A stretch of 59,373 nucleotides of DNA from an uncultured Gammaproteobacteria bacterium (GTDB lineage: Bacteria > Patescibacteriota > Patescibacteriia > Patescibacteriales > UBA12465): contig CAZZBQ010000001.1 in NCBI GenBank assembly GCA_964652745.1, positions 16,029 to 75,401 of the forward strand, written 5' to 3'. Within the stretch, counting starts at the first letter, position 1. Each line of letters starts with the position of its first letter. Positions 8,164 to 43,903 of this stretch are shown in pieces. Under the pieces are notes generated by a model that saw only the letters and a list, made by a program, of their open reading frames with translations, was not told the DNA's origin and did no database searches. Both the position numbers and the translations under genes were made by a program.

Positions 8164-9046
8164 AGAGACAAAAAAACCTAGTCAACTAGCGCTCGCCGTT
8201 CTTAATCCGGTAATCTTTCTTGATAGTTTTGATTATCCGGCAACCGCTTACGAAATTAGACACTATCTTGATCGCAATTTTTCTTTGGTTGAGGTTTTTT
8301 CTGGATTAGAAGAATTAGAAGCTGTCGGCATTCTTCAGGAAAGCCAGGGCTTCTATTTTTTATTAGGGAGGCGCGACATTATAAATATTCGCCAAGCTCG
8401 TTATAATTATTCTTGTGCTAAGTTAAAAATTGCTCGTCGGTTTAGCCGACTTTTTTCTTTATTCCCCGGGGTAGTTGCGATTGCGGCGGCAAATTTTATT
8501 GGTCGCCATAATCTTCGTGCCGGAAGTGATATAGATTTTTTTATGATTACTAAACCAGGCATGATTTGGCTTAGTCGTTTGTACTGCGCTGGGCTAGCTA
8601 AACTCCTGAACCGACGTCCGACTAGTAAAGAAAAAAAAGATAAGATATGTTTGAGTTTTTATATTACTGCTAATAATCTTGATATTTCTAAATTAGCTTT
8701 ACCTGAAGGAGATCCTTATTTTTATTATTGGCAGAGAGGTTTAGTTCCTCTTTATGACCATAAATTTATTTGGGATAAATTTTTACAGGCCAATAAATTA
8801 TGTTCGTCACGAATTTATATATCAGAAGTTAGCCTTGAAAGTTCTAGTAAAAATAACTTTTTAGAAAGAGCGGCCAAAATTTTTCAGCTGAAGATTATGG
8901 CAAAGGAGCTATTACGGGCTAATAATAATTCTGATGGAGTAATAATTTCTGATGATATTTTAAAACTTTATTTAGGAGATCGCCGCCGTCAATTTGCTGT
9001 TATTTTTAATGATAAAAAAAATGAAATTATTAAAGCAATTAACTGA
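8153..9046 (+). CDS. Hypothetical protein with a winged-helix-like N-terminus and a nucleotidyltransferase-fold-like core (tentative)
   Basis: 297-aa ORF overlapping the rmuC stop by 11 nt. GSDIDFFMI resembles the minimal NTase GS..DxD motif. No firm family call. Confidence 0.6.
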   Translation: MLAEETKKPSQLALAVLNPVIFLDSFDYPATAYEIRHYLDRNFSLVEVFSGLEELEAVGILQESQGFYFLLGRRDIINIRQARYNYSCAKLKIARRFSRLFSLFPGVVAIAAANFIGRHNLRAGSDIDFFMITKPGMIWLSRLYCAGLAKLLNRRPTSKEKKDKICLSFYITANNLDISKLALPEGDPYFYYWQRGLVPLYDHKFIWDKFLQANKLCSSRIYISEVSLESSSKNNFLERAAKIFQLKIMAKELLRANNNSDGVIISDDILKLYLGDRRRQFAVIFNDKKNEIIKAIN

Positions 9047-10301
9047 GTTATTTTTACTTATTTTTGTTTTTTTGCTACCTTGGCAAACAAAGTTAATCTT
9101 GCGTCCAGCTGTTAGCAATTTTAATGAGATAAGTTTATATGTTAGCCATTTAGTGCTATTACTAGCGTTAATTTGTTTTTTTGTTTATCAATTATCTAAG
9201 CGAAGTAGTAAAAAAACAACTCCGCCGATCTGGTATTTTTTGGTAATTTTAGAAATATCGATTTTAATTTCTTTTTTCTTTGCGCCTGATTCTCTGTTGG
9301 CAGCACATCGCTATTTTATTTTTTTAGGCGGTCTAGGTTTATTTTATCTTTTACGCGAAGGCTTGGATAGAAATGCTTATCAGGAAAGTTGTTTAAGTAG
9401 AACTAGAGCGCTTTATATTTTTTTAACTAGTATTTTTTTACATTCGGTTTTAGGCATTTGGCAATTTTTAAGCCAGAAGACCTTTGCCTCTAAATATTTG
9501 GGGATTGCTAGCCATGATCCACAAACATTAGGTGTCTCAGTAGTTGAGACGGCGACTGGCCGTTGGCTCAGGGCTTATGGTGGCTTGGATCACCCTAATA
9601 TTTTAGGCGGAGTTTTAGTCTTTGCTTTATTGTTTACCGCCTTTTTATTAGCACGTAAAAAAATTATTAATTCCCAAATTCATGTTTGGGGGTTGCTGCT
9701 TTTATTTTTTAGTTATTTTGTTTCTTTAGCTGCTCTATTTTTTTCTTTTTCTCGGGCTGCTTGGTTGGCATTTATTGTCGGCATGATTTGTTTGTTAATA
9801 AATATTATGAAGCATGAGGACCGCTGGGTGTTAATGAGGTTTCTGGCAGTTTCTTTTTTTTCTATAATATTATTTGTTTTAGCTATTTTTCCTTATCGAG
9901 AGCTTGTTTTTACTCGTTTAGACGCCAGTACGCGTCTTGAAAGATCATCTATACACGAGAGAGTTGATTATTTGTCTGACGCGGAGGCTATGATTAAAAA
10001 AAATCCCTTGTTCGGGATTGGGATAGGAAATTATGTTCAAGAAGCGGCTCTGAATGGTCGTCCTGATAATTATTATAATCAACCAGTGCACAATGCTTTC
10101 ATTTTAGTTTTTGCCGAGAGCGGATTGTTTGCTTTTCTTGGTTTGATTTTATTTCTTTCATTTTTAGCGCGAGACAGCCGCAAGCAGTCATTTTCTTTGG
10201 CAGTCGTTGTTGCTATGGTAATTCTTATGATGTTTGATCATTGGCTCTTATCTTTGCCTTTTGGTATTTTATTTTTCTTTTTTGTTCTGGGATTAATTTG
10301 A
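9021..10301 (+). CDS. O-antigen ligase (Wzy_C) family polytopic membrane protein
   Basis: Trimmed to ATG 9021 (MKLLKQL). About 10 TM segments, with FSFSRAAWLAF and PVHNAFILVFAESG typical of the O-antigen ligase domain. Confidence 0.82.
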   Translation: MKLLKQLTELFLLIFVFLLPWQTKLILRPAVSNFNEISLYVSHLVLLLALICFFVYQLSKRSSKKTTPPIWYFLVILEISILISFFFAPDSLLAAHRYFIFLGGLGLFYLLREGLDRNAYQESCLSRTRALYIFLTSIFLHSVLGIWQFLSQKTFASKYLGIASHDPQTLGVSVVETATGRWLRAYGGLDHPNILGGVLVFALLFTAFLLARKKIINSQIHVWGLLLLFFSYFVSLAALFFSFSRAAWLAFIVGMICLLINIMKHEDRWVLMRFLAVSFFSIILFVLAIFPYRELVFTRLDASTRLERSSIHERVDYLSDAEAMIKKNPLFGIGIGNYVQEAALNGRPDNYYNQPVHNAFILVFAESGLFAFLGLILFLSFLARDSRKQSFSLAVVVAMVILMMFDHWLLSLPFGILFFFFVLGLI

Positions 10302-21211: not shown

Positions 21212-22678
21212 TTACTTGTTTATGCCAGGGATAAATCGTTTAATATTTTCTAGGGTTGATTTTTTGGCGTGTTGTTTAATTTGGTCGCGTGCACGCTTGG
21301 TTTTTACAAATTTTAGCCAGTCCTTATTTGGGTGTTGGCGGTTTTTTTCAATAATTATTTCTACCATATCACCATTTTTTAATTCTTGATCCAAACGTCC
21401 CAGTTTATCATTTATTAATACGCCAGAGGCTTTGTTGCCGACATTGCCATGGATAGCATAGGCAAAATCAATCGGGGTTGATTTTTCTGGTAGTTCAAAG
21501 ACATCACCTTTTGGAGAGAAGACGAAAATTCGGTCTCGAAAAATATCCATTTTAACATTTTTGACCAGCTCTGAAGTGTTGGTAATTTCTTTTTGAATAT
21601 CAACGATTTCTTTAATCCAACGCGGTTGCTGGTAATTATCGGTGCTACCTTTAGATTTGTAATACCAGTGGGCGGCAATACCATATAAAGCTTCTTCATG
21701 CATTTCTTTAGTTCGGATTTGAAATTCTGTTGGTTTTCCTTCAGGTCCAAAAATGGTTGTGTGTAAAGAACGATAGCCGTTTGGTTTAGGGACGGCAATA
21801 TAGTCTTTAAAGCGATTTGGTTTTGGCTTCCAAATAGTGTGGATAACACCTAGAACTTTGTAACAGTCATCAATGGTGGGCACAATAATACGCATGGCAA
21901 AGACATCATAAATTTCGTTGAATTTTCTGTCTTTTTCTTGCATTTTTTTAAAAATGCTGTATAAGTGCTTGAAGCGCGCTTCTATTTCATATTTGATTCC
22001 AGCTTCTTCGAGTTTTGGTTTTAAAATACCACGTACATTTTGGAAAAAACGCTGTCTTTCAACTTTTTTTTCAACTTCGTATTTATATTCTAATTCATTA
22101 AATTTTTCTGGATAAAGATGTTTGAAGCAAATATCCTCCATTTGCCACTTCAAGCGCTCAATACCTAGTAAGCCGGCAACGGGAGCGTATATCTCTAGGG
22201 TTTCGGCGGCTATCCTTCGTTTTTTATCGGGAGGTAGAGATTCTAAGGTGCGTAAATTATTTAGACGATCACAAAATTTAATAAAGATAACACGTAAATC
22301 GCTAGTCATGGCGAGAAACATTTTTTTTAGATTTTCTCTATAACGTTCAATGCCACGATATTTTATTTTACTTAATTTAGTTACACCGCTTACTAGGCTG
22401 GCAACTTCGGCGCCGAATTCCATTTCCACCTCTTCTATGGTTTTTTCAGTATCTTCAGGGACATCATGTAGAATTCCAGCTGCTACGGTTGGCAAATCGG
22501 CCCTAATTTCGGCAAGAATATAGGCGGTGTGTAGGGGGTGCTGGATATAAGGCTCGCCATTTTTTCTTAATTGTCCAGCATGAGCGACATCAGCAAAAAG
22601 AAAGGCTTTTTTTAATAGGTCGGCGTCTACTCCAGGGTTGTTGTCAATAAATTTTTTAATTATCCTTTCTATGGTCAT
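21212..22678 (-). CDS. rel: Short bifunctional-type RelA/SpoT homologue (HD hydrolase + synthetase + TGS, with no domains after TGS)
   Basis: HD region HPLHTAYIL...GILHDVPEDT, synthetase YRSLHTTI...EFQIRT, and TGS IFVFSPKGDVFELPEKSTPIDFAY. At 488 aa it ends about 45 aa after TGS. Confidence 0.92.
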   Translation of the reverse strand: MTIERIIKKFIDNNPGVDADLLKKAFLFADVAHAGQLRKNGEPYIQHPLHTAYILAEIRADLPTVAAGILHDVPEDTEKTIEEVEMEFGAEVASLVSGVTKLSKIKYRGIERYRENLKKMFLAMTSDLRVIFIKFCDRLNNLRTLESLPPDKKRRIAAETLEIYAPVAGLLGIERLKWQMEDICFKHLYPEKFNELEYKYEVEKKVERQRFFQNVRGILKPKLEEAGIKYEIEARFKHLYSIFKKMQEKDRKFNEIYDVFAMRIIVPTIDDCYKVLGVIHTIWKPKPNRFKDYIAVPKPNGYRSLHTTIFGPEGKPTEFQIRTKEMHEEALYGIAAHWYYKSKGSTDNYQQPRWIKEIVDIQKEITNTSELVKNVKMDIFRDRIFVFSPKGDVFELPEKSTPIDFAYAIHGNVGNKASGVLINDKLGRLDQELKNGDMVEIIIEKNRQHPNKDWLKFVKTKRARDQIKQHAKKSTLENIKRFIPGINK

Positions 22679-22771
22679 AAATAGTTTTTATTTTGGCATG
22701 CTTATGTTATAATAAAAATATAATATAGTATAGCATTAAAAGGAGTATTTTTAAAGTTCTCCTAAGAAAAA

Positions 22772-25435
22772 ATGTTGAAAAGAAAAAAGATAATTTTCGG
22801 CTTTTTTTTGGCATTAGTCGCCTTATTAGTCGCCAATATTTCTCAGGCGCAAGATTTTGGCGTTGACTCCATTGAAAGTACGATTGCTTTATCAAACAGC
22901 GACCCTCGAGCTATCGTTGGACGCATTATTCAGATTGTTCTAAGTTTGCTCGGCGTTATTACTCTTGGACTCATGATTTATGCTGGATTTCTTTGGATGA
23001 CATCGGGTGGCGAAGAGGAAAAAATACGAAGTGCGAAAAATATTTTAAAGAATGCAATTATTGGTTTAGTAATTATTCTCTCCTCTTGGGCAATAACAAC
23101 TTTTCTTCTTTCTAAATTGATGGGGGCTATTTCTGGGAATGGTTCAGATTTACCTAGTGGTAGTATTAGAGAAAATTTTAGTGTTGGCTTGGGGGCTATA
23201 GGGTCTTGTTCGGTACAAGATGTTTATCCGGAAAATAATCAAAAAGACGTTCCACGCAACACTTCTATTATTCTGACTTTTAAAGAAGAGATTGATTTAT
23301 CATCAGCTTGTGTTGATACTTCTGGTTCGGCCTGTGCTTGTGATAATGGCGCCTGCGCTCTTATTAATCCAAATAGTATTAGAATATATAAACAAGATTT
23401 GAATGATGCTTGCACCTCTTCTTGCCCTAGCCCTAATTCTAATGTTACTGACGTTTCGGTTGCCGTGTCAGCCGACAAGAGAACTGTAATACTTTCCCCG
23501 CTTAGTTATTTAGGAACCGCTGAAAACAACACAGACTACATAGTGAAAATTACTTCTGATTTTAAAAAAGCTGATGGCACTTCTATGTTTAGCACCTGTA
23601 GTGCTAATGAACTTATCTGGACTTTTGAAATTGGCTCTCGTTTAGATTTAACGCCGCCGCAAGTAGTTTCTAAATTTTTATTTCCTTTGCCCGATAACGC
23701 CAAAGATGTAGTTACTACCAGTGTTTCAGCTGCTAACGCTACAGCAGAAATTTTTGTAAATAGTTGTCCTAAAATATATAAGCCGGCGGCAGTAAACAAT
23801 GTTTCTCCTGAGGCGGAGGTTATTTTGAATTACCATGGAGTTATTAATCGCTTTATTGTTTCAGTGCCCGCAGACGAACCTAATCGTGCACAGCTTTTTA
23901 ATCTCAATACCAGCGCCTTATTAGGGGTGGCTGATTTTGATGCTGACAATAAAGTTATTTTTGATGGATATTTTAGTCTTAAAGTTGATAGTCATGAAGC
24001 CGGTAATTCGTGGGAGGTTGAGATAACTCCCGAACAGCTCGCTGATACCCTTACGGTTGGTAATATTAAATATTCTTTTGCGTCTACCGGAGAGAATAAT
24101 AACATTATTGTTAGAGAGGGTACTTGTAATGTTGATAATCAAGCCATGGATATTCAGGCTAAATTAAGTGGGCATCCTGATATTAATATTTCTCGTACGG
24201 GTAGCCGCGTTTCTTTAGAGGCTAAAGTTTCTGGTAGCGTTGCTAATAGTTTAATACTTAGCACAAGCAATTCTAGTGCTTTAGGGCTCACGGCTTTTTC
24301 TGGCGGGGCTGATGAAAAAATTTCTTATGTTATTAATGATAAGCGAGACGTTGCAATGAATGCGGTTGTTAAGTTTACTTTTAATGAACCAATGAACCCG
24401 GTTACCTTATCTGGTTCGGCTGCTGAAGTTTCTCCTTATTTGCGCTTAATTAATGCGGCTGGTGGAAATTCGTCAGGAGCAGCTTGTTCGGTAAATTCAG
24501 AGTGCCTTTCTTATAAGTGTGACGGTGGCACGTGTGTTGGTAATTATTTGAATGGACATTTCGCTATTTCTAATGGTTATAAGACAGTAGAGTTTATTTC
24601 TGATAATGAATGTGGAATTAATGGTTGTGGTGAAAAAATATATTGCTTGCCATCAAATAGTAACTTAGCTTTAGAGGTAAAAGCAGCTGGGCTAAAAACT
24701 TGCGCGAGCGATCAAGATTGTTCAGCTTCTAGTCCATATACATCGTGTGCCATGACTCCGCTTGGTTACCGTACCTGCCAAGATGCCGGTCAGCGTAATT
24801 ATCCCTTGGCTGATATTATTGCTATGAATGGCGTTACTGATACAGCATTTAATTCTTTGGACGGAAATAGAGATGCTTTAGCCGATGGCCCAATTTCTTA
24901 TTTTAATGAAAATAATGGGATCATTAGCAATCGTGATAGTTATCGTTTTTCATTTTTTGTTAATGATCAGAAAGAATTATCTTCGCCGCGTATAACCTCG
25001 ATTACTCCAGTCAATGGACAAACTGACATTACCACTTTAACCGATCCAGTGGAGATAACTTTTAATACCTTGATTATGTCCAGTACGCTGAAATCGGGTA
25101 GCACTGTTTTAGACGGCGCCCAGGGGCCAGTTGAACATAAATTTGTAAATTTAAAGAGCGCGGCTGCTAGTCCGCTTGGGTACTGGATATTATCAGAGGA
25201 TAAGGATGTTTCGCCTTTAGATGGCGTGACTGATTTAACGGTTGCCAGCATTAAGCATTCTGTATTTTCAGAATCTCTTTCCTATATTGCTCAGACTGGG
25301 TCGGGATTAAAAGATGTTTATCAGAATTGTTTTAAACCAAGTTCAGGACCTAGTTGTGAGGCAACTTGGGATAATCCATCTTGTTGTTTCGGGTTACCTT
25401 CTAATAATTTAGATGAAAATGGCAACTGCCAATAA
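22772..25435 (+). CDS. Giant surface protein 1: signal peptide, VirB2/TrbC-like pilin hairpin, Big_5/SbsA-like Ig domains and Cys-rich C-terminal region
   Basis: 887 aa. Signal ...VANISQAQ. Two hydrophobic helices flank TSGGEEEKI. Segments such as VQDVYPENNQKDVPRNTSIILTFKEEID look like Big_5 domains. About 26 Cys by hand count. Confidence 0.85.
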   Translation: MLKRKKIIFGFFLALVALLVANISQAQDFGVDSIESTIALSNSDPRAIVGRIIQIVLSLLGVITLGLMIYAGFLWMTSGGEEEKIRSAKNILKNAIIGLVIILSSWAITTFLLSKLMGAISGNGSDLPSGSIRENFSVGLGAIGSCSVQDVYPENNQKDVPRNTSIILTFKEEIDLSSACVDTSGSACACDNGACALINPNSIRIYKQDLNDACTSSCPSPNSNVTDVSVAVSADKRTVILSPLSYLGTAENNTDYIVKITSDFKKADGTSMFSTCSANELIWTFEIGSRLDLTPPQVVSKFLFPLPDNAKDVVTTSVSAANATAEIFVNSCPKIYKPAAVNNVSPEAEVILNYHGVINRFIVSVPADEPNRAQLFNLNTSALLGVADFDADNKVIFDGYFSLKVDSHEAGNSWEVEITPEQLADTLTVGNIKYSFASTGENNNIIVREGTCNVDNQAMDIQAKLSGHPDINISRTGSRVSLEAKVSGSVANSLILSTSNSSALGLTAFSGGADEKISYVINDKRDVAMNAVVKFTFNEPMNPVTLSGSAAEVSPYLRLINAAGGNSSGAACSVNSECLSYKCDGGTCVGNYLNGHFAISNGYKTVEFISDNECGINGCGEKIYCLPSNSNLALEVKAAGLKTCASDQDCSASSPYTSCAMTPLGYRTCQDAGQRNYPLADIIAMNGVTDTAFNSLDGNRDALADGPISYFNENNGIISNRDSYRFSFFVNDQKELSSPRITSITPVNGQTDITTLTDPVEITFNTLIMSSTLKSGSTVLDGAQGPVEHKFVNLKSAAASPLGYWILSEDKDVSPLDGVTDLTVASIKHSVFSESLSYIAQTGSGLKDVYQNCFKPSSGPSCEATWDNPSCCFGLPSNNLDENGNCQ
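22853..23125 (+). other. VirB2/TrbC-like pilin hairpin module (copy 1)
   Basis: aa 28-118: DPRAIVGRIIQIVLSLLGVITLGLMIYAGFLWMTSGGEEEKIRSAKNILKNAIIGLVIILSSWAITTFLL, i.e. helix, short polar loop, helix after a signal peptide. Confidence 0.65.
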
Positions 25436-25444
25436 TATAAATTT

Positions 25445-28400
25445 GTGTCTAAGAAAATATTTAAACAACTCGCCTCTTTAGTAGTAGTTCTGGGAGGAAT
25501 TTTTGCTTTCCGTTTAGTTTTTGCTCAGACTTTTGGGGTGGATGAAGTATCTTCTGGGTTAGGAGGCTCTCTTTCTGAAAGCGATCCGCGTGCTATTTTT
25601 ACGCGGATTATTAATGTTACTCTTGGTCTTCTGGGTGTTATTGCGCTAGGCCTTATTATTTATGCCGGTTTTTTGTGGATGACTTCTGGGGGCGAAGAGG
25701 AAAAGATATCCAAGGCTAAAAAGTTGTTAGTCAGTGCGGTTATTGGCTTAGGTATAATTCTTTCTTCTTGGGCGATTGCTTCATTTGTTTTGGATAGATT
25801 AAGTGATGCTACTAATGGTACAAATGGTGACAGTGGTTGCATTGATGGTACGACACGGTCTTGCGGTTGTAATGGGTCAATGACTTGTATTTCTGGTTCT
25901 TGGAGTGGTTGTGTTGGCTCGGACTGCTCTAGCTATTCGGCGGAACAATATTGCGACTCCAATTCTATTTTAGGCGGTTGCCAGGCTAGTGATAGCATCT
26001 GCTCTCCTCAGGATTACTGTGCTACTGATTGTACTTGCCAACCTAAGGGGGGGGCAGGTGATTCTTGTGATGCTGACAGCGATACGCCAACTTGTGATGC
26101 TAACAATAGTCTTTGTTCTGAATTTTTAACTTGTAATCTAGATACCTGTACTTGTTCGGGGCCGCCAGTCATTACTGGAATTAGTCCGGAAGGAGGATTT
26201 TGTCAAGAAAATATAAATAAATCTTGCCAACAAGATTCTGACTGTAATACTGTCTGTAATCAAGCTGCTCCTAATGGTGCCGTTGATAATTTTTTAACAA
26301 TTTTTGGTAGAAGTTTTGGTGAATATGATCCAGCTTCTAGTCAAGTTATATTTTTAGGAGGCAATCGTTTGGGGCGCAATCCTTCAGATATTAATCCAAT
26401 TTGTATAGACTCTTGGAGTGATAAACAAATAATTATTGCCATCCCAAGTGGAGTTAGTAGTGGTGGAATTAAAGTTATTAGACAAGACGGCCAAGAAGAT
26501 TCTACTAATAATGACTATGGTCCTATAATTGCTGATTTTGTCGCCAACACAATAGTGCGCCCAGGTTTGTGCCGTCTTACTCCAGAAATTGGAGGTTTGG
26601 GTACGGCCGCTACCTACCAAGGCAACAGTCTTTATGCCGGTAGAGCATATTTTGGTAACTACCAAACAAATGTTCAGGCTCTTGATTCTAGCTTTAGTCA
26701 TCCTAGCGGTTTATCTGGCACAGCCGCCGTTCCTAATATTAGGTCAGGCGAAGCTACTAGTTTCGTAATTAGCACTTTAGGCGGAAATCAAGAAAGAAGT
26801 AATTATTTATATTTTGATAAAGAAGCCGACCCTAAAGATGGTCCTTTTATAGTTTCATTTTCGCCAACAACTGGAAGATCAGGGCAATACGTTACTATTA
26901 CTGGTAGCGGATTTGGTGGTGCACGTGGTAATTCAAAAGTTTATTTTGGTGGCGCTGAAGCTGATTATTCTTTCCCGCCGGTTTGTGCCAGTTCTGTTTG
27001 GAGCGATAATCAGATAATTGTGAAGGTACCGGAAGCAGCCGCTAATGGCTATAATTATATTCGTGTAGAATTAGCTAGTGGCGTAATAGATACTAGTCAA
27101 TTAAATCCTAATTCATTTAACGTTGATAGTAGTTTATCTTTGAAGACAAGTTTGTGTAAGATTGATCCTGCTCAAGGAGCAGCTTCTACTCCTGTAAAAT
27201 TGTATGGTGAATATTTTGGCCCAACCGGGCAAGCTGGTTTAGTTCAGTTTAGTGTTAACAAAAATATTTCCGGTGTTATTAATCAGGAAAATGGAGCTGA
27301 TATTATTACCGCTTCTGTTCCCGAGGGAGCAGTTACTGGCCCGGTAAAGGTAGTTAAAAATAATGAATGGGGCAATGATTTAAATTTTGAAGTTGGTAGC
27401 TGCGCTGGTAATGATAGTTGCCCTGGCAGTCAGGTTTGTTGCCCAGGAAATACTTATAAGAAAGGGCGCTGTGTGGCCAGTCTTAATGATTGTTTAATTG
27501 ATATTCCTAATTCCGTTTTTGAATGGAATTTTAGCACTGGCTATACTCAGAGAGATATCGTAGATCCAACTGAAAGTTGTTCCACGCTAGCCGATTACGC
27601 CGGTGCTTGTCAAGTAGATTCTTTCTGCCCTAATACAACCGGAGTTTGCTCGCCTTATGCGGGTAATAGTAAAAAAGTAGTAGGTAGTTGTGATTATTCT
27701 TGTGCTTCTGTGACTGGTTGTGACGCCTTCCAATCATCTTGCTTTTACGACGCTTCAATTAATAAGTGTGTTAAGTCAGGTGCCGACGGTTTATGTAGTT
27801 TATCAGAATCTAGAACATTTAGTTTGGGTGAACAAACTATTCAAGCCACCGTTACTTGTAACCAAGATGGTAATTGGCAATTTACCACACTTACCTCTTG
27901 TCCCAGTGGTTGGACAAAGGGAATAAATAATATTTGTACAGACGAAAGTTCTGTTTGCAGTTTATGTAAAGATGGCTTGACTTGTGAAAGAGTTGGGTCT
28001 GATGGTCGTTGTGTTTCTCAGGGAGTTTGTCCAACTGGCTCATTGTGTGAAGATAATCCCGATATGGCGGCTGCCGATAGATGTATTGCTTATGATTTGC
28101 CTAGTTGTGATTGCTGCTGTCGGATTGGTAATAGCGCACAAGATTGTTGCGCTCCTTTAGAGTGTTCTGGCACCTGTGGAACTGATCAGGCAGATGATGG
28201 TGCTGGTTTAGGACAGTGTTCAGGTTGCGCCAATGTTGGTAGCACCCAAGCAGAACATGACGCGGCTTGTAATTGTTCAGGCAAGAGTGGACAATATTGC
28301 AGTATTACTTCGGAAAATCCTCAAGGGGTGTGTACTGATTGTACTGGGCTGCAAACACAATCAGATTGTGCTGATCACAGCGCGGCCTGTTGTTTTGATG

Positions 28401-36334: not shown

Positions 36335-37372
36335 ATGTTTAGAAATGATAAAAATCAATTGAAAAAGGGTGATAGGGTGGTTAACAAAGTTGATCAAGAT
36401 TTGATAGTGCATAATATGCCTAACAAATCTAGGTTAAGCGGTTCTTCTGTAGCAGCTATTACTAATCAAGACTTTTCCGGTTCAAACGTAAAACAGCACA
36501 ATGTTAAATCGATTGGTGCTATTATTATTGTATTGGGAGTTATTCTGGTTGGCGCCTTGGTTTACTTAAGTTATCGTTTTGTTATTAAGCCGCAAGCAGA
36601 AAAAACTCCAGTTGCTCAAGTAAATAAGCCTGCGTCTATTTCGCAGACAACTGAAACTGAATTAACTGATGCACCTATTGTTGCCACATCTTCAGCGGTT
36701 GATATTGAAACGATTGATCCAATTAGCGCAACTACAAGCCAGAGCGTTGCTACTACTTCCGAAGTAGCAATTAATGAAGAGGATATGCCGGAAGAGGGGC
36801 TAGTCGAGGAAGTGCTTTGGACGCCGATTTTAGATACTGATGGTGACGGTTTAACTGATGATGAGGAGTCAGCTATGGAAACTAATGTTTCAGAAATTGA
36901 TACTGACAAGGATGGGTATTTAGATTTAGCAGAAATAAAAAGCGGCTATAATCCGCTTAATACTGGACGCCTAAATGAAAGCACATCTTTGGCGATTCAT
37001 AATGATATGGTTAGTAAATTTTCAATTTTATATCCAGTTTCATGGATTAAGCAGTCGTTAAATAGCGGTTATACTTTAATTATTTCAGCGCCAGATAATT
37101 CTTTATTTCAAGTCTCCGTTCAGGATAATCCCCGCAATCAAGTGATTGCTGATTGGTATGCGGAAACATTTTCTTCAGAAACAGATACTTACAGCAGTTT
37201 TAAAAACGGAGTTGGCTGGGAGGGAATATCAAGTAAAGATGGATTAGATTTTTATTTAACAGATATTGAGAAGAATAATATTTATGTTATCTCTTATATA
37301 CCAGTTATTAGTACGCGGTTAGCATATTTGAATATTTATCAAATGATGATTGATAATTTTAAAATCCAGTAG
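36335..37372 (+). CDS. Membrane-anchored protein with TSP3-like repeats and an uncharacterised C-terminal globular domain
   Basis: Trimmed to ATG 36335. One TM (IGAIIIVLGVILVGALVYLSY), Thr/Ser-rich linker, DTDGDGLTDDEE and DTDKDGYLDLAE. The architecture is paralogous to 35439..36191. Confidence 0.75.
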   Translation: MFRNDKNQLKKGDRVVNKVDQDLIVHNMPNKSRLSGSSVAAITNQDFSGSNVKQHNVKSIGAIIIVLGVILVGALVYLSYRFVIKPQAEKTPVAQVNKPASISQTTETELTDAPIVATSSAVDIETIDPISATTSQSVATTSEVAINEEDMPEEGLVEEVLWTPILDTDGDGLTDDEESAMETNVSEIDTDKDGYLDLAEIKSGYNPLNTGRLNESTSLAIHNDMVSKFSILYPVSWIKQSLNSGYTLIISAPDNSLFQVSVQDNPRNQVIADWYAETFSSETDTYSSFKNGVGWEGISSKDGLDFYLTDIEKNNIYVISYIPVISTRLAYLNIYQMMIDNFKIQ

Positions 37373-37393
37373 ATAACAATATTAAAGTTATTT

Positions 37394-37425
37394 AAAAAAC
37401 ACCGCATAAATAAGCGGTGTTTTTT
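37394..37425. terminator. Bidirectional Rho-independent terminator between the surface-protein block (+) and clpP (-)
   Basis: AAAAAACACCGC / GCGGTGTTTTTT around an 8-nt loop. Confidence 0.85.
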
Positions 37426-37443
37426 ATTTTTATTATTAGAATT

Positions 37444-38022
37444 TTATTTTTTAATAATTTTATCGATAATACCGTACTTCAAAGCTTCATCAGCTGACAT
37501 GAAATTATCGCGGTCGCTATCTTTTTCCACGGTTGCTTCTTTTTGTTTAGTATGAAAAGCAAGAATTTTATTCATTTTCGCCTTGGTCTTCAAAATATGT
37601 TCAGCACGAATTTTAATGTCAGAAGCTTGGCCTTCTGCGCCACCCATAACTTGATGAATCATTACTTCGCTATTAGGCAGAGCAAAGCGTTTGCCTGGGG
37701 CGCCAGCTGCTAATAAAACTGAAGCCATAGAGGCGGCTAAACCGACACAAATAGTGGAAACATCAGATTTAATGTATTGCATAGTGTCGTAAATTGCCAA
37801 GCCAGCACTAACTGAGCCGCCAGGGGAATTGATGTAAAATTTAATATCTTGGTCCTTATTTTGAGCATCTAAAAACAAGAATTGAGCAATTACAATATTG
37901 GCGACATGGTCATCTATGGGCTCTCCCAAAAAGATGATCCTATCTTTTAAAAGGCGGGAATATATGTCGTAGGCACGTTCTACGTGCCCCTCTTTTTCAA
38001 TAACTGTAGGTATTAATGGCAT
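37444..38022 (-). CDS. clpP: ATP-dependent Clp protease proteolytic subunit
   Basis: [38 protein letters not shown] (active Ser) and MIHQVMGG. Confidence 0.96.
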
Positions 38023-40803: not shown

Positions 40804-43137
40804 ATGAACTCTCTTATTTCTCTAAAAATAAATAAATCTAGGGTTTTAGCTTTAGCTATAGAAACTACTTATTTGCTGACTGTTTTTTTAATTCCAGTTT
40901 GGTTTGCTTATTTTTTTCCAGGGTTTAATCTATTCGAACTTAGTAAGTTCGCTATTTTTCGGTTTTTAGTTTGGTTTTTGCTAGTTCTAACCGCCGTACG
41001 TTTCATTTTTTTTCGGAAAGAATTAAACTTTTCCTTTTTGAGATTAGTTAAATTATTTTTTATCCCTTTTTTGTTTATTGCCGGTTTAGCAGTTTCTTTA
41101 TTTTTTTCTATTGATTTACAGCAAAGCTTTTTTGGCTCCTATGATCGCCAAGAGGGTTGGATAAGTCAGGCAATGTATTTTGTGTGGTCAATATTATTGA
41201 CAGTTAATTTATTATGGCCATCGAAAAATCATAAGGAGTCTAATTATCGCACATTAGTTAATAAGCGAGTAGAGAATTTAGTTTTTACTATGGTATTATC
41301 AACATCAATAGTTGCTTTATATGGAGTTTTACAAATTATGGGCTTTGATTTTTTAGATTGGCCAGAGCAGCCGTATTTAACCGGTAGAACTTTGTCTTCT
41401 TTAGGACAACCAAATTTCCTCGCCTCCTTTTTATTATTAGGTATGCCGCTAACTGCTTATTTAATGTTTCTTGCAAAACGTTTTTTTGTTAAATCTGCCT
41501 ATTTTATTTTGTTAGTTTTACAAATAGCTTGTTTATTTTTTACAGCCAGCCGTGGGGGGCTGTTAGCCTTTTTTGCAATGATTGTGCTGTTAGTAGCATA
41601 TCTCTTTTTTACAGCCAACTTATCTAAAAAAATTAAGATTGGCTTAGTAAGCTCGGTTGTATTTTTAGGAATTGTTGGTTTAGCGGCCTTAGAGCTAGTA
41701 ACTCCGGGAAGAATTAAGGAATCATTTGATTTTACGCGCGGAAGTCTAGCTTCACGGGTTTTCTTTTTTCAGGCCTCAGCTGATGCTATTTTAGAGCGAC
41801 CGTTATTTGGATATGGACTAGAAAATGGTGGCGAAGTGTTTATTAAATACTATGAGCGTGATTGGGGAATTTATGGAGATGTTAGCTCTAATACTGATAG
41901 AGCACATAATATATTTTTAGATATTTTGATTTCTGCTGGTTTTTGGGGTTTGTGTTTGCTTGTGATGTTTTATTATTACTATTTTCGCCTTAGTTGGCAG
42001 GAGATAAAAAGCGGAACAAGTAAACCCTTAATGTTGGCTTTATCTTTAGGTGTATCGGCTTATTTAATTTCTTTGTTTTTTAGTTTTGCAATTGTTTCTG
42101 GTGAAATCTATTATTGGTCATTTTTAGCAATATTGCTTGCATTAATTGCTAGCCAAGCTAGTGATAATAAACAGAGCGTAGAGTTAAAAAAGGAATCCAA
42201 GATTGTAGAGTGGCTTGTTATTGCTTTCTCAATTATAATTATTTTATTTTCTAGTTGGCAAATGATGCGCAGTGTCCAGGTTTTAATGGCGGATTATTAT
42301 AAAAACAGAATTTTTATTGCCGTAGAAAATAGAGAATTTATTGAGGCGGTTGTTCTGCGTTCAGAAATAATTAATTTAAATATTAATCCGGTCTTAAAAG
42401 ATCATTATGATTATTATTTGGGCTCACAATTAGTTAATTATTGTACCTATGGCAGCTTCCAGGATTTAGCTGAAGAAAGAATTGTTAAAGCAAAACTAGA
42501 AACAATTGTTAAGTCGCTTCCCGATTATGGTTATGAAAATATTTTATTAAAAGCAAATGCGGCTGCTTGTTTAAACAATGAATTAGAGGCGGATAAATAT
42601 TTTAATATCTTAGCACAGCTGGCTCCAGAGTGGCCTCGGGCTTATTTGGAAAGAGGTTATTATTTAGCAAAACAGGGTAGGTTGGTTGATGCGGAAAAAT
42701 ATTATCAATTAGCTGATATCAATTTACCAGATCCGGATAGTGATAAAATTAATTTGTCGCATCGTCGTGTAGTCGCTAATTATAAATTTTTAATGTATGC
42801 TAGCTTAGCAGATGGCTATTTTAAACAAGGTAATTATGTGCGCGCTGAAATGTTTTTCCAGAATGCTTTCCGCTATCGGCCAGAAGATTATTCAATATTT
42901 AAAAAAATTGCCGACTGCTATTATTTACAGGGGGATTTAAATAATGCTATTAAATATATCCGCCGTGGCTTAGCCTCTAATCCAAGCGATGTCAGTTGGC
43001 ACATTGCTTTAGCGGTTTTATATTTTGAAAATAATAACATTTCTGAAGCCTTGGCTCGATTAGATGAGGCGGAAAAAGTTGCTCCAGCTAGTTCAATTTC
43101 AGAAATAGAAAGTTTACGTTTAGATTTTAATAAATAG
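40804..43137 (+). CDS. O-antigen ligase (Wzy_C) family membrane protein fused to C-terminal TPR repeats
   Basis: Polytopic N-terminal two-thirds with FTASRGGLLAF and RAHNIFLDILISAGFWG. The C-terminal 250 aa or so has TPR-like repeats (YYLAKQGRLVDAEKYY, YFKQGNYVRAEMFF, YYLQGDLNNAIKYI). Confidence 0.85.
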   Translation: MNSLISLKINKSRVLALAIETTYLLTVFLIPVWFAYFFPGFNLFELSKFAIFRFLVWFLLVLTAVRFIFFRKELNFSFLRLVKLFFIPFLFIAGLAVSLFFSIDLQQSFFGSYDRQEGWISQAMYFVWSILLTVNLLWPSKNHKESNYRTLVNKRVENLVFTMVLSTSIVALYGVLQIMGFDFLDWPEQPYLTGRTLSSLGQPNFLASFLLLGMPLTAYLMFLAKRFFVKSAYFILLVLQIACLFFTASRGGLLAFFAMIVLLVAYLFFTANLSKKIKIGLVSSVVFLGIVGLAALELVTPGRIKESFDFTRGSLASRVFFFQASADAILERPLFGYGLENGGEVFIKYYERDWGIYGDVSSNTDRAHNIFLDILISAGFWGLCLLVMFYYYYFRLSWQEIKSGTSKPLMLALSLGVSAYLISLFFSFAIVSGEIYYWSFLAILLALIASQASDNKQSVELKKESKIVEWLVIAFSIIIILFSSWQMMRSVQVLMADYYKNRIFIAVENREFIEAVVLRSEIINLNINPVLKDHYDYYLGSQLVNYCTYGSFQDLAEERIVKAKLETIVKSLPDYGYENILLKANAAACLNNELEADKYFNILAQLAPEWPRAYLERGYYLAKQGRLVDAEKYYQLADINLPDPDSDKINLSHRRVVANYKFLMYASLADGYFKQGNYVRAEMFFQNAFRYRPEDYSIFKKIADCYYLQGDLNNAIKYIRRGLASNPSDVSWHIALAVLYFENNNISEALARLDEAEKVAPASSISEIESLRLDFNK

Positions 43138-43138
43138 T

Positions 43139-43903
43139 ATGGATTATTTTTTTATTATAATTGCTGGTTTACTAGGCTTAATAGTTGGTAGTTTTTTAAA
43201 TTGTTTAATTTGGCGCATTTATAAAGAAGAAAGCATAATGGGCCGGTCTTATTGCCCGAAGTGTTCTAAACAAATTGCTTGGTATGACAATATTCCACTT
43301 TTAAGTTTTATTATTTTACGTGGTCGTTGCCGCCATTGCCAACAGAAAATATCTTGGCAATATCCCTTAGTGGAATTTTTTACTAGTCTTTTATTTGTCC
43401 TATCTTTTATTTCAGTTTCTGACACACCTGACATGCCTTTACTTTTGGCGCGCAATTGGCTATTAATTATTACTTTTATAACAGTGTTTATATATGATTT
43501 GCGCTGGCAGATGGTGCCGATGATTATTATCTGGCCAATGATTGCGGTGGCAGCCGGAATTAGTATTTTTCTTGGTTATCCTTGGCAGGAAGTATTCTTG
43601 TTTGGTGTGGCTGGCACTTCTTTTTTTCTGATTCAGTATTTTGCAACCGCTAAACGGGGAATTGGTGAGGGAGATATTTGGCTTGGATTATTAATTGGCG
43701 TCACTTTTCCTGAGGGTGGATTATTAGCACTAGCTTTAATTCTGGCTTATTTTGTTGGCGCAATTGTTAGTGTTGTTTTGTTGTTTGACCGTCAACGGGG
43801 ATGGAAGTCAAAAATAGCACTAGGTCCATTTTTGTCTTTTGGTGCTATTATTACCCTAATTTACGGAAGCGAGATTCTGGCTTGGTATTTAAGTCTGTTT
43901 TAG
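43139..43903 (+). CDS. pilD: Prepilin peptidase (A24 family, with N-terminal Cys-rich domain)
   Basis: CPKCSKQIAWYDNIPLLSFIILRGRCRHCQQKISWQYPLVE, plus catalytic Asp regions (IYDLRWQ and GIGEGDIWLG). Confidence 0.9.
   Translation: MDYFFIIIAGLLGLIVGSFLNCLIWRIYKEESIMGRSYCPKCSKQIAWYDNIPLLSFIILRGRCRHCQQKISWQYPLVEFFTSLLFVLSFISVSDTPDMPLLLARNWLLIITFITVFIYDLRWQMVPMIIIWPMIAVAAGISIFLGYPWQEVFLFGVAGTSFFLIQYFATAKRGIGEGDIWLGLLIGVTFPEGGLLALALILAYFVGAIVSVVLLFDRQRGWKSKIALGPFLSFGAIITLIYGSEILAWYLSLF

What the first reader, a model, noticed from the sequence alone, without database searches (positions are those of the whole stretch)
22853..25801. Two paralogous VirB2/TrbC-like pilin hairpins used as N-terminal modules of 887-aa and 1928-aa proteins
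Seen in sequence: both proteins start with a signal peptide followed by helix - TSGGEEEKI loop - helix, at aa 28-118 and aa 30-119. The two copies share an identical 17-aa run IYAGFLWMTSGGEEEKI plus DPRAI and SSWAI. Established knowledge: a signal peptide followed by two hydrophobic helices around a short polar loop is the topology of conjugative T4SS pilins (VirB2/TrbC), which are normally small stand-alone proteins. Inference: here the hairpin is fused to ectodomains of 770 and 1800 residues. Either it is only a membrane anchor, or it polymerises and displays huge adhesin domains along a filament. No VirB4 or VirB6 is present in the window. The only T4SS-like ATPase (50628) is about 19 kb away.
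Basis: partly seen in the sequence, partly recalled or inferred. Interest (0 to 1): 0.7.

Follow-up and report, generated by a model that had tools for sequence, protein, structure and literature searches.

The report
Conjugative-type pilin hairpins carrying giant ectodomains
Two neighbouring genes of an ultra-small (Patescibacteria) bacterium each attach a conjugative-pilus-type membrane hairpin to a very large, cysteine-rich, Ig-like surface domain; the gene pair is conserved in hundreds of related species, and I found no paper that describes this design for this class of pilin.

Summary
ORF A (22772-25435, 887 aa) and ORF B (25445-31231, 1928 aa) both begin with a signal peptide followed by a two-helix hairpin. 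The hairpins are 63% identical over 103 aa and share the 17-aa run.

Both hairpins score above Pfam's threshold for T4SS_pilin (PF18895). Their link to canonical VirB2/TrbC is weaker but detectable: it is sub-threshold by HMM, and hhalign gives 79% probability.

Predicted topology is N-out/C-out, so the ectodomains lie outside the cell.

This is not a one-off. A-B-C gene order holds in 62 of 62 related loci, relatives occur in 368 species genomes (class ABY1/Falkowbacteria), and the neighbourhood is housekeeping genes with no T4SS genes nearby. In more distant lineages B is fused to the downstream gene C, giving 3100-5000 aa proteins.

The hairpin is the most conserved part of A (70% identity, against 56% for the ectodomain and 38% for the signal peptide). 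The A and B hairpins also co-vary within genomes. This argues for a working pilin module rather than a passive anchor.

Whether the hairpin polymerises into a filament or stays in the membrane is unresolved.

Verdict: a real, conserved "modular VirB2-type pilin" system, a new variant of known kinds. Interest is moderate to high.

The parts
22772..25435 (+). Gene A, 887 aa: signal peptide, VirB2-type pilin hairpin, flexible linker, all-beta Ig-like Cys-rich ectodomain
   Evidence: ORF. Pfam T4SS_pilin 40.8 bits and Big_5 57.8 bits. AF2 mean pLDDT 80.4. Among the 120 best hits of 368 listed, all are 870-921 aa with the same two Pfam domains.
22772..22849 (+). Signal peptide of A (aa 1-26; KRKK n-region, h-region, SQA|Q cleavage site)
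   Evidence: The cleavage site is inferred from the -3/-1 rule and is aligned with VFA|Q in B.
22901..23119 (+). Pilin hairpin of A (aa 44-116: DPR motif, TM1, loop TSGGEEEKIRSAKN, TM2)
   Evidence: This is the most conserved region of the A family, with 70% mean pairwise identity.
23120..23185 (+). Gly/Ser/Asn-rich linker of A (aa 117-138)
   Evidence: pLDDT below 50 for residues 117-136. Mean pairwise identity 24%.
25445..31231 (+). Gene B, 1928 aa: signal peptide, pilin hairpin (aa ~47-119), Cys-rich stretches, IPT/TIG, Big_5 and fn3 domains
   Evidence: ORF. Pfam T4SS_pilin 31.1 bits, TIG, Big_5 and a weak fn3 hit. 126 Cys. An ORF carrying a second pilin module directly follows A in 76 of 81 distinct loci, 79 of the 83 listed.
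31240..35037 (+). Gene C, 1265 aa: signal peptide or N-terminal anchor, conserved N-terminal domain with no family match, PKD/Ig-like and Cys-rich regions. It has no pilin hairpin. In other lineages it is fused to the C-terminus of B.
   Evidence: P0222 (3301 aa) aligns to B and then to C aa 36-324, E 4e-39. 23 of the 25 proteins longer than 3000 aa carry this C domain. A<B<C order in 62 of 62 loci.
35079..35363 (+). Small single-TM protein, 94 aa, conserved downstream
   Evidence: no Pfam match. Homologue found in 33 loci. Genes of 103-117 aa occupy the same position in L001-L003.
35439..36191 (+). Membrane protein with bacterial TSP3 (calcium-binding) repeats
   Evidence: Pfam TSP3_bac 56.7 bits. 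Same position in L001-L003. Homologue found in 38 loci.
36329..37372 (+). Second membrane protein with a TSP3/EF-hand-like motif. Its membership of the unit is less certain.
   Evidence: weak hits. Homologue found in only 7 loci within the fetched range.
37393..37426 (+). Intrinsic-terminator-like hairpin that closes the unit
   Evidence: 13-bp stem followed by a T run. It is the longest-stemmed site in 22500-37600. Gaps are 9 nt between A and B, and 8 nt between B and C.

Best explanation
A and B are modular VirB2-type pilins. Each has a working pilin hairpin module at the N-terminus, a flexible linker, and a large extracellular effector part made of Ig-like domains (Big_5, TIG, fn3) and disulfide-rich stretches.

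Proposed sequence of events:
- Sec inserts the protein into the membrane.
- Signal peptidase cuts after SQA (A) or VFA (B).
- The hairpin then sits in the cytoplasmic membrane with both ends outside and the lysine/arginine-bearing loop in the cytoplasm. This is the state of a VirB2 pilin pool before assembly.
- The 770- and 1800-residue ectodomains project through the wall.

The hairpin is not a passive anchor. It packs specifically with other hairpins (A with B, possibly also with stand-alone pilins) or is handled by the pilin pathway of the type IV secretion system encoded elsewhere in the genome. A, B and C together form one surface structure, most likely used for contact with a host or partner cell.

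Because of their bulk, A and B are expected to be low-copy components (membrane-proximal hetero-oligomer, base, tip or sparse subunits) and not the body of a filament.

Shown here: family membership, topology logic, conservation, synteny and the B-C fusion. Inferred: hairpin-hairpin packing, any involvement of the T4SS, and the adhesion role.
For: Family and homology:
- PF18895 scores above threshold in both proteins. The module alone scores 48.1 bits.
- hhalign against a profile of eight annotated plasmid VirB2/TrbC proteins gives 79% probability, E 1.6e-5. Both helices are in register, including the DP before helix 1 and G..WM at its end.
- The nearest NCBIfam model is the pilin-like conjugal transfer protein of mycoplasma ICEs.
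- The module is collinear with stand-alone 120-148 aa Patescibacteria pilins, and the ectodomain starts where those proteins end.

Topology:
- The n-region carries 4 K/R, the N-tail is acidic, and the loop has 4 K/R.
- The ectodomains hold 26 and 126 Cys.

Constraint on the hairpin:
- Within the A family the hairpin is the most conserved region: 70% identity, and 67% for the cytoplasmic loop. The ectodomain is 56%, the signal peptide 38% and the linker 24%.
- A and B hairpins of the same genome are 9 points more alike than A and B of different genomes (Wilcoxon p 6e-14). There is no sign of recent gene conversion.

Gene unit:
- A-B-C order holds in 62 of 62 loci.
- B and C are one polypeptide in other lineages.
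- Intergenic gaps are 8-9 nt, and there is one strong terminator after the unit.

T4SS in the genome:
- VirB4 is recorded in 4 of 5 named assemblies that carry the locus (Table S1 of PMC12102498).
Against: - No T4SS gene lies in the window. None is seen in the called genes within 10 kb of A in L001-L003. The other loci were not scanned for T4SS genes.
- One assembly with the locus (CG1_02_37_21) has no VirB4 on record, though it is a 0.70 Mb scaffold-level MAG and may be incomplete.
- The TrbC/VirB2 HMM match is below threshold.
- A sequence search of the PDB with the module profile found no pilin.
- Foldseek on the hairpin model returned only generic helical hairpins, E above 0.3.
- No multimer prediction could be run.
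- The co-variation test is inflated by shared ancestry of the genomes.
- The adhesion role rests only on domain types.
- Tandem-hairpin proteins in the same family suggest that these hairpins can function as ordinary polytopic membrane bundles.
Confidence: 0.5

Rival explanations
1. True filament subunits. The T4SS extracts A and B from the membrane and builds them into a VirB2-type pilus together with stand-alone pilins. They sit as tip or sparsely spaced subunits, so the filament carries giant adhesins. This would be the T4SS counterpart of the tip-located modular type IV pilin PilB.
For: - The evidence of hairpin constraint is the same as for the best explanation.
- From general knowledge of F and T pilus structures, both pilin termini lie on the outer pilus surface and the loop lines the lumen, so a C-terminal fusion would point outward.
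- The linker is flexible.
- VirB2-like pilins and VirB4 are widespread in Patescibacteria, and no PrgB-type adhesin was found there (PMC12102498).
- Modular type IV pilins set a precedent (PMC8179133).
Against: - No pilus of this type has been visualised in these organisms.
- Pulling a hairpin out of the membrane while it carries 770-1800 folded, disulfide-bonded residues is untested.
- The locus is not linked to T4SS genes.
- The nearest curated family is from wall-less mycoplasmas, which to my knowledge are not known to make conjugative pili.
Confidence: 0.25
2. Passive anchor. The hairpin is only a two-TM membrane anchor that happens to derive from a pilin. A and B are ordinary membrane-anchored surface proteins with no hairpin-specific interactions.
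For: - The locus lies among housekeeping genes with no T4SS neighbours.
- The ectodomains are very large.
- C has only a plain signal peptide or anchor and no hairpin.
Against: - The hairpin, including its cytoplasmic loop, is more conserved than the ectodomain. It is far more conserved than the equally hydrophobic signal peptide.
- The motif W-M-T-S-G-G-x-E-E-K is shared with stand-alone pilins.
- A and B hairpins co-vary within genomes.
Confidence: 0.15
3. Envelope lattice. A, B and C are the structural surface-layer proteins of these cells. They are tethered to the membrane by the hairpin instead of by SLH or similar wall-binding domains, and their role is structural rather than adhesive.
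For: - The best Foldseek matches of the A model are S-layer proteins: SbsC 4uj6 at E 4e-8, SbsC 4uic, and Sap and EA1 of B. anthracis.
- A has a near-constant length and is present in every related genome examined.
- Calcium-binding TSP3 proteins are encoded in the same unit.
Against: - TM-scores are 0.07-0.13, so the match reflects strings of Ig-like domains and not a shared architecture.
- No SLH or other S-layer signature was found.
- Identity of 42-80% across a whole class is high for S-layer proteins. This last point is from general knowledge, not a test.
Confidence: 0.08
4. Pro-protein. The chain is cut in the linker after export, in the way that P-type TrbC pilins lose a C-terminal piece before cyclisation. 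This would release a normal small pilin and a free secreted ectodomain.
For: - The linker is disordered and poorly conserved, and lies exactly where stand-alone pilins end.
- C-terminal processing of TrbC-type pilins is established (general knowledge).
Against: - No conserved cleavage motif is visible in the linker (24% identity).
- No maturation protease gene is conserved in the unit. The S26 signal peptidase upstream appears to be the housekeeping enzyme.
Confidence: 0.02

Closest known systems
Stand-alone VirB2-like pilins of Patescibacteria (Pfam PF18895 T4SS_pilin), including the essential pilin array of Southlakia epibionticum and the pilin arrays described in PMC12102498
   Same: Same Pfam family. 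Same signal peptide, helix, short loop, helix plan. They share the motif YAGFLWMTSGGxEEK...IIGL and are 33-46% identical to the A module. Like these pilins, A and B are often encoded away from virB4.
   Different: Those proteins are 95-190 aa and end 10-25 residues after helix 2. A and B continue for 770 and 1800 residues. Pilin arrays are sequence-divergent (mean 25% identity according to the paper), whereas A and B keep 55% module identity on average and 63% here.
Canonical conjugative pilins VirB2/TrbC (PF04956), such as Agrobacterium VirB2 and RP4 TrbC
   Same: Same topology. Both helices are detectable by profile-profile alignment.
   Different: The HMM score is below threshold. The loop is about 7 residues longer. 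A and B are not encoded next to virB3/virB4. Head-to-tail cyclisation is not possible for the full-length chain. The organism is presumed to be a monoderm.
Modular type IV pilins (PilB and PilC of Streptococcus sanguinis, CofB, TcpB, ComZ, GspK; PMC8179133)
   Same: Same design logic: a small N-terminal pilin carrier module, a short linker, and a bulky effector module. The design is widespread and diverse, and many examples come from Patescibacteria.
   Different: The pilin fold and the assembly machine are unrelated. Type IV pilins have a class III signal peptide and a single N-terminal helix, and are processed by a prepilin peptidase. A and B have no such motif and use a Sec signal peptide plus a two-helix hairpin.
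Surface adhesins of Gram-positive conjugation systems (PrgB-type, LPXTG-anchored)
   Same: Large, multi-domain, Ig-rich surface proteins that could provide cell-cell contact for a monoderm T4SS.
   Different: A, B and C have no LPXTG motif. They show no PrgB homology in Pfam. Anchoring is by a pilin hairpin instead of sortase.
Bacillus and Geobacillus S-layer proteins (SbsC, Sap, EA1)
   Same: Chains of Ig-like beta-sandwich domains. These are the best Foldseek matches of the A model.
   Different: TM-scores are very low. A has no SLH domain, and its ectodomain is rich in cysteine.

Membership tests
Pfam PF18895 T4SS_pilin | HMM score at or above the curated gathering score (26.6 bits) | tested here: met
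   A scores 40.8 bits and B 31.1 bits. The A module alone scores 48.1 bits. All 25 members of the module alignment hit the family.
Pfam PF18895 T4SS_pilin | Signal peptide followed by two hydrophobic helices joined by a short polar loop | tested here: met
   Hydropathy and charge analysis. AF2 helices at 45-77 and 82-120.
Pfam PF18895 T4SS_pilin | Small stand-alone protein of about 100-190 aa (the usual form) | tested here: not met
   A is 887 aa and B is 1928 aa. Stand-alone relatives are 95-195 aa.
TrbC/VirB2 conjugative pilins (PF04956) | HMM score at or above the gathering score (27.9 bits) | tested here: not met
   15.2 and 15.1 bits on the full proteins. 20.3 bits, E 6.6e-4, on the module alone, covering profile positions 7-96 of 98.
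TrbC/VirB2 conjugative pilins (PF04956) | Remote homology to bona fide VirB2 by profile-profile comparison | tested here: inconclusive
   hhalign probability 79%, E 1.6e-5, 58 aligned columns spanning both helices. This is supportive but below the usual 90-95% level.
TrbC/VirB2 conjugative pilins (PF04956) | Encoded in a T4SS cluster next to virB3/virB4 | tested here: not met
   No VirB3, VirB4, VirB6 or VirB8 in the 59-kb window. None in the called genes of L001-L003.
TrbC/VirB2 conjugative pilins (PF04956) | Polymerises with phospholipid into an extracellular pilus | not testable with these tools
   No multimer prediction tool and no experiment were available. Foldseek on the hairpin model gave only generic hairpins.
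Modular type IV pilins (IPR012902 N-terminal module) | Class III signal peptide with a prepilin cleavage/methylation motif | tested here: not met
   No G-F/M-T-L-x-E type motif in the first 60 residues. No N_methyl hit in Pfam.
Modular type IV pilins (IPR012902 N-terminal module) | N-terminal pilin module, short linker, non-pilin effector module | tested here: met
   This is met by architecture only, with a different and unrelated pilin fold.
S-layer proteins (SbsC/Sap/EA1 type) | Wall-binding SLH or equivalent domain plus a self-assembling Ig-like chain | tested here: inconclusive
   No SLH domain. Foldseek E 4e-8 to SbsC but TM 0.11-0.13. Lattice formation cannot be tested here.
LPXTG-anchored Gram-positive T4SS adhesins (PrgB type) | C-terminal LPXTG sorting signal | tested here: not met
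   No LPx[TSA]G motif in A, B or C.

The most novel reading that the evidence does not exclude
A and B are natural modular conjugative-type pilins that the Patescibacteria type IV secretion system assembles into a filament (or a filament tip) carrying giant adhesins. This would tie the T4SS of these epibionts, which is essential but of unknown function, directly to host-cell attachment. The tandem-hairpin proteins of the same family would then be covalently pre-assembled pilus layers.
Probability: 0.25. Interest if true: 0.85.

Novelty: new variant of a known kind. Interest (0 to 1): 0.6.

Why it matters
VirB2-type pilins are textbook small, stand-alone subunits. The idea of grafting functional modules onto a pilin is established only for the unrelated type IV pilins.

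This locus shows the same strategy applied to the conjugative-type pilin hairpin. The ectodomains reach about 1800 residues here and about 5000 residues in relatives, and the design is conserved across a whole class of Patescibacteria.

These bacteria depend on contact with other cells. In the one Patescibacteria species tested genetically, Southlakia epibionticum, the T4SS and its pilins are essential, but what they do is unknown. A recent survey also reported finding no T4SS adhesins in the phylum (PMC12102498).

The A-B-C proteins are concrete, testable candidates for that missing surface component. They also give a natural test case for whether a VirB2-type hairpin can carry a large cargo.

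Tried and rejected
- **PDB sequence search with the module profile.** Only spurious hits to designed 'Pizza' propeller proteins, through the motif AGxxWxTxxG. No pilin was found.
- **PDB sequence search with the full A profile.** Nothing below E 0.3.
- **Foldseek with the hairpin-only model.** Only generic helical hairpins such as syntaxin and HR1 domains, E at least 0.35. A two-helix hairpin is too simple for this test, so the result is inconclusive and not negative.
- **GspG-like pseudopilin domain in C.** I thought the segment 'ALARYKEVNGSYP...DPINRF' of C resembled one. A Pfam scan at E up to 10 and a profile search of the PDB gave no support, so I dropped the idea.
- **Recent gene conversion as the cause of the 17-aa identical run.** Rejected: synonymous codons agree no more often than codon usage predicts.
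- **Tandem-hairpin proteins as read-through artefacts of pilin gene arrays.** Rejected for P0198: it has a single signal peptide and 85-90 aa units with no internal start or signal regions.
- **Exact look-up of the window's A protein in the contig index.** Not on record. The source genome itself was not identified. The nearest record is 80% identical (L004).
- **Third homology search, using the N-terminal domain of C.** It returned mostly short or partial proteins and no annotated family.
Full report
**1. What is in the sequence**

The window is a piece of a Patescibacteria (CPR) chromosome. GC content is about 37%, almost all genes lie on the + strand, and the content is housekeeping: GyrA, RuvB, HisRS, RelA/SpoT, ClpP, SecDF, FtsA/FtsZ and NrdD.

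Three very large genes follow RelA/SpoT, which is divergently transcribed. They are separated by 9 and 8 nt:
- A, 22772-25435, 887 aa.
- B, 25445-31231, 1928 aa, GTG start.
- C, 31240-35037, 1265 aa.

The finding's coordinates run from residue 28 of A to residue 119 of B. The two N-termini are 63% identical over 103 residues, E 7e-42. The alignment includes the 17-residue run IYAGFLWMTSGGEEEKI.

Each protein has a signal peptide:
- a lysine/arginine-rich n-region;
- a hydrophobic core;
- SQA|Q in A and VFA|Q in B.

After the signal peptide come:
- an acidic tail of about 20 residues ending in the DPR motif;
- a hydrophobic helix;
- a polar loop with four K/R;
- a second hydrophobic helix.

A and B have no other membrane segment. 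AlphaFold2 predicts a helical hairpin (45-77 and 82-120), a disordered linker (117-136, pLDDT below 50), and then an all-beta ectodomain (mean pLDDT 80.4).

**2. Is the hairpin a T4SS pilin?**

Evidence for:
- Both proteins exceed Pfam's curated threshold for T4SS_pilin, PF18895: 40.8 and 31.1 bits against 26.6. The isolated A module scores 48.1 bits.
- The nearest NCBIfam model is the 'Mbov_0395 family pilin-like conjugal transfer protein' of mycoplasma integrative conjugative elements, at 34.8 bits. This is below its cut-off of 40.
- I built a profile of eight annotated VirB2/TrbC proteins from conjugative alpha-proteobacterial plasmids and compared it with a profile of the module and 23 stand-alone relatives. 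hhalign gave 79% probability, E 1.6e-5. Both helices aligned in register, including the DP before helix 1 and G..WM at its end. The Patescibacteria loop is about 7 residues longer.

Weaker or negative evidence:
- The canonical TrbC/VirB2 model (PF04956) matches end to end but below threshold: 15 bits on the full proteins, 20.3 bits and E 6.6e-4 on the module alone, against a cut-off of 27.9.
- A sequence search of the PDB found no pilin.
- Foldseek with the hairpin model found only generic helical hairpins. This is uninformative for so simple a fold.

Conclusion: membership of PF18895 is established. Relationship to canonical VirB2 is probable but remote.

**3. Topology**

The n-region and the inter-helix loop are the only K/R-rich stretches. 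The tail before helix 1 and the stretch after helix 2 are acidic. The parts after helix 2 contain 26 cysteines in A and 126 in B, many of them invariant.

This gives N-out/C-out with the loop in the cytoplasm. From general knowledge, this is the arrangement of F-pilin and VirB2 in the inner membrane. The large domains are therefore outside the cell.

**4. Not a one-off: a conserved gene set**

A full-length search with A returned 368 proteins. The 120 best are all 870-921 aa, cover the whole query at 48-80% identity, and all carry PF18895 plus Big_5. Sources call them 'pilin' or 'Ig-like domain-containing protein'.

A scan of one genome per GTDB species found relatives in 368 stretches. Where the organism is named, it is Falkowbacteria, Parcubacteria or Patescibacteria, which the T4SS survey's Table S1 assigns to GTDB class ABY1.

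In the 81 distinct loci fetched:
- A is followed directly by an ORF carrying a second pilin module in 76 (79 of the 83 listed loci). Full-length copies are 1500-2400 aa, and some are cut off by a contig end.
- A-B-C order holds in 62 of 62 loci that reach far enough.
- RelA lies upstream in 75.

The same unit appears in the complete 977-kb Falkowbacteria genome CP066698.1 and in FLOH01000015: S26 peptidase, HisRS, RelA, A, B, C, a small protein, a TSP3 protein. In the window a strong terminator at 37393-37426 closes the unit.

A custom HMM finds no further pilin module anywhere in the window.

**5. Age of the duplication and constraint on the hairpin**

Across 76 genomes, the nearest neighbour of an A module is another A in 73 cases. 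The nearest neighbour of a B module is another B in 75 cases. The duplication therefore predates the clade.

Yet A and B of the same genome are more alike than A and B of different genomes: 54.7% against 46.5% overall. The excess is 9 points in the core, Wilcoxon p 6e-14, after excluding near-identical genomes. That p-value is inflated by shared ancestry.

In the window this is not recent gene conversion. Of 69 identical degenerate residues, 26 use the same codon, against 28.7 expected.

Mean pairwise identity within the A family, by region:

| Region | Identity |
|---|---|
| Hairpin | 70% |
| Cytoplasmic loop (part of the hairpin) | 67% |
| Ectodomain | 56% |
| Signal peptide | 38% |
| Linker | 24% |

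The hairpin is the most conserved segment. Its conserved residues (DPR, G61, G72, W75, S78, G80, K84, G98, W106) largely coincide with those of stand-alone pilins. A plain hydrophobic anchor would be expected to behave like the signal peptide. This one does not.

**6. The ectodomains and gene C**

A contains Big_5 Ig-like domains. B contains IPT/TIG, Big_5 and fn3 domains between long cysteine-rich stretches. C contains PKD/Ig-like domains and cysteine-rich repeats.

The best structural matches of the A model are S-layer proteins (SbsC at E 4e-8; Sap and EA1) and the Ig-like domains of L,D-transpeptidases. TM-scores are only 0.07-0.13, which reflects strings of Ig-like domains and nothing more specific.

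An exhaustive search of 1.84 billion representatives with the 126-residue module found 30,090 proteins at E up to 1e-3. The best 150 break down as follows:

| Class | Count |
|---|---|
| Stand-alone (200 aa or fewer) | 14 |
| Single N-terminal module, longer than 200 aa | 90 |
| of which longer than 3000 aa (up to 4978 aa) | 25 |
| Two or more hairpins in one chain | 46 |

Of the 25 giants, 23 carry the N-terminal domain of C at about residue 2050-3670. P0222 (3301 aa) aligns first to B and then to C, E 4e-39. B and C are therefore one polypeptide in other lineages. This is classical fusion evidence that they act together here.

The best 150 are biased towards relatives of the query. They do not give the modular fraction of the whole family.

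**7. Relation to the T4SS**

The window has no VirB3, VirB4, VirB6 or VirB8. The only related protein is a soluble TrwB/TraG/HerA-like ATPase with a zinc finger at 50628-52520.

Published work shows the following:
- Most Patescibacteria have a VirB4-based T4SS of the monoderm (MPF_FATA-like) type.
- VirB2-like pilins, often in arrays, were found in 1,948 assemblies, and near virB4 in 1,135 of them.
- No PrgB-like adhesins were detected (PMC12102498).
- In Southlakia the T4SS and its pilins are essential (PMC10633639).

Table S1 of the first paper records VirB4 in 4 of 5 named assemblies that carry the A/B locus. The exception is a 0.70 Mb scaffold-level MAG that may be incomplete.

The closest stand-alone relatives of the module sit in tandem arrays of 3 to at least 9 genes, or singly. 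They too have no VirB4 within 10 kb. Separation from the machinery is therefore normal for this family.

**8. Interpretation**

*What is shown.* A pilin-family hairpin with VirB2-like topology is joined by a flexible linker to huge extracellular Ig-like, cysteine-rich parts. There are two ancient paralogues plus a partner, C, in one conserved transcription unit. The hairpin is under stronger constraint than the cargo.

*What is inferred.* The hairpin still does something pilin-specific: it packs with other hairpins, or it is handled by the pilin pathway. A-B-C form a surface structure used for cell contact.

*The filament question.* I consider a homopolymeric filament of A or B unlikely on steric grounds. 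From general knowledge, VirB2-type pili stack five subunits per rise of roughly 1.3 nm. A membrane-proximal hetero-oligomer, or a low-copy tip, base or sparse position in a filament, remains possible. The data do not separate these.

*Rivals.* These are a passive anchor (disfavoured by section 5), an S-layer role (weak structural hint only), and cleavage in the linker (no supporting motif).

**9. Comparison with what is known, and novelty**

The design matches 'modular pilins'. That concept is established for type IV pilins, where bulky modules are grafted on a pilin carrier and are probably tip-located (PMC8179133). Here the carrier is the unrelated conjugative-type hairpin.

The proteins are in public databases with uninformative names. 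My searches of the held literature found no description of VirB2-type pilins fused to large ectodomains. The library does not cover most subscription journals, so this is absence of evidence within that library.

I class the finding as a new variant of known kinds. It is real, conserved and testable, and its mechanism is unresolved.

Noticed in passing
P0198, P0212, P0229 and 43 other representatives; not in the window: Some proteins consist of 2 to at least 7 VirB2-like hairpins in a single chain; phmmer counts up to 17 stretches. P0198 (552 aa) has one signal peptide and six ~90-aa hairpin units with no internal start or signal regions. These are therefore true tandem repeats giving 12-TM proteins, not read-through of pilin gene arrays.
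   Followed up: partly
window 25445-35037; P0222, P0237 and 21 other proteins longer than 3000 aa: Genes B and C of the window are a single polypeptide of 3100-5000 aa in other lineages (a Rosetta-stone fusion). The N-terminal domain of C (aa 36-340) has many invariant residues (W26, DGY, SxWPSW, DPxN), no Pfam match and no PDB sequence match.
   Followed up: yes
window 50628-52520 (+): A soluble P-loop ATPase with weak TrwB/TraG/T4CP, HerA (DUF87) and CedD-like matches and a C-terminal treble-clef CxxC-x17-CxxC zinc finger. It sits directly after the anaerobic ribonucleotide reductase genes NrdD and NrdG. Its role is unknown and it has no membrane segment typical of coupling proteins.
   Followed up: partly
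window 35439-36191 and 36329-37372 (+): Two single-TM proteins with bacterial thrombospondin type 3 (calcium-binding) repeats close the A-B-C unit. The first is conserved at this position in related genomes. This hints that the surface structure depends on calcium.
   Followed up: partly
window 8994-10301 and 40804-43137 (+); 43139-43903 (+): Two Wzy_C/O-antigen-ligase-like membrane proteins; the second carries C-terminal TPR repeats and a PglL-like motif. A type IV prepilin peptidase (A24) lies immediately before ftsA-ftsZ. The genome therefore also has type IV pilus processing, and possibly protein O-glycosylation of surface proteins.
   Followed up: no
L073 10001-12668 (CAYUWA010000006.1): In this relative, gene A is split into a 116-aa ORF (hairpin) and an 813-aa ORF (ectodomain). 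This could be a frameshift, an assembly error, or a natural split of carrier and cargo.
   Followed up: no
L082 3951-4706 (-): A third pilin-module ORF (252 aa) lies 5 kb upstream of A in one Falkowbacteria MAG. It is the only extra module seen within 10 kb of A in the 81 loci.
   Followed up: no
L004, L005, L010 and about 30 further loci: Many GTDB representative MAG records that carry this clearly Patescibacteria locus are titled 'uncultured Gammaproteobacteria bacterium'. This looks like a systematic mislabel in the submitted records.
   Followed up: no
L092 331-4645; L094 9386-10791: The closest stand-alone relatives of the module occur as arrays of at least nine (Magasanikbacteria contig) and three tandem pilin genes. 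No VirB4 lies within 10 kb, and a GT2 glycosyltransferase sits next to both arrays.
   Followed up: partly
window 1-59373: GC skew is positive in every 2-kb bin and nearly all genes are on the + strand. The whole window therefore lies on one replichore, with genes co-oriented with replication and no origin or terminus inside it.
   Followed up: no
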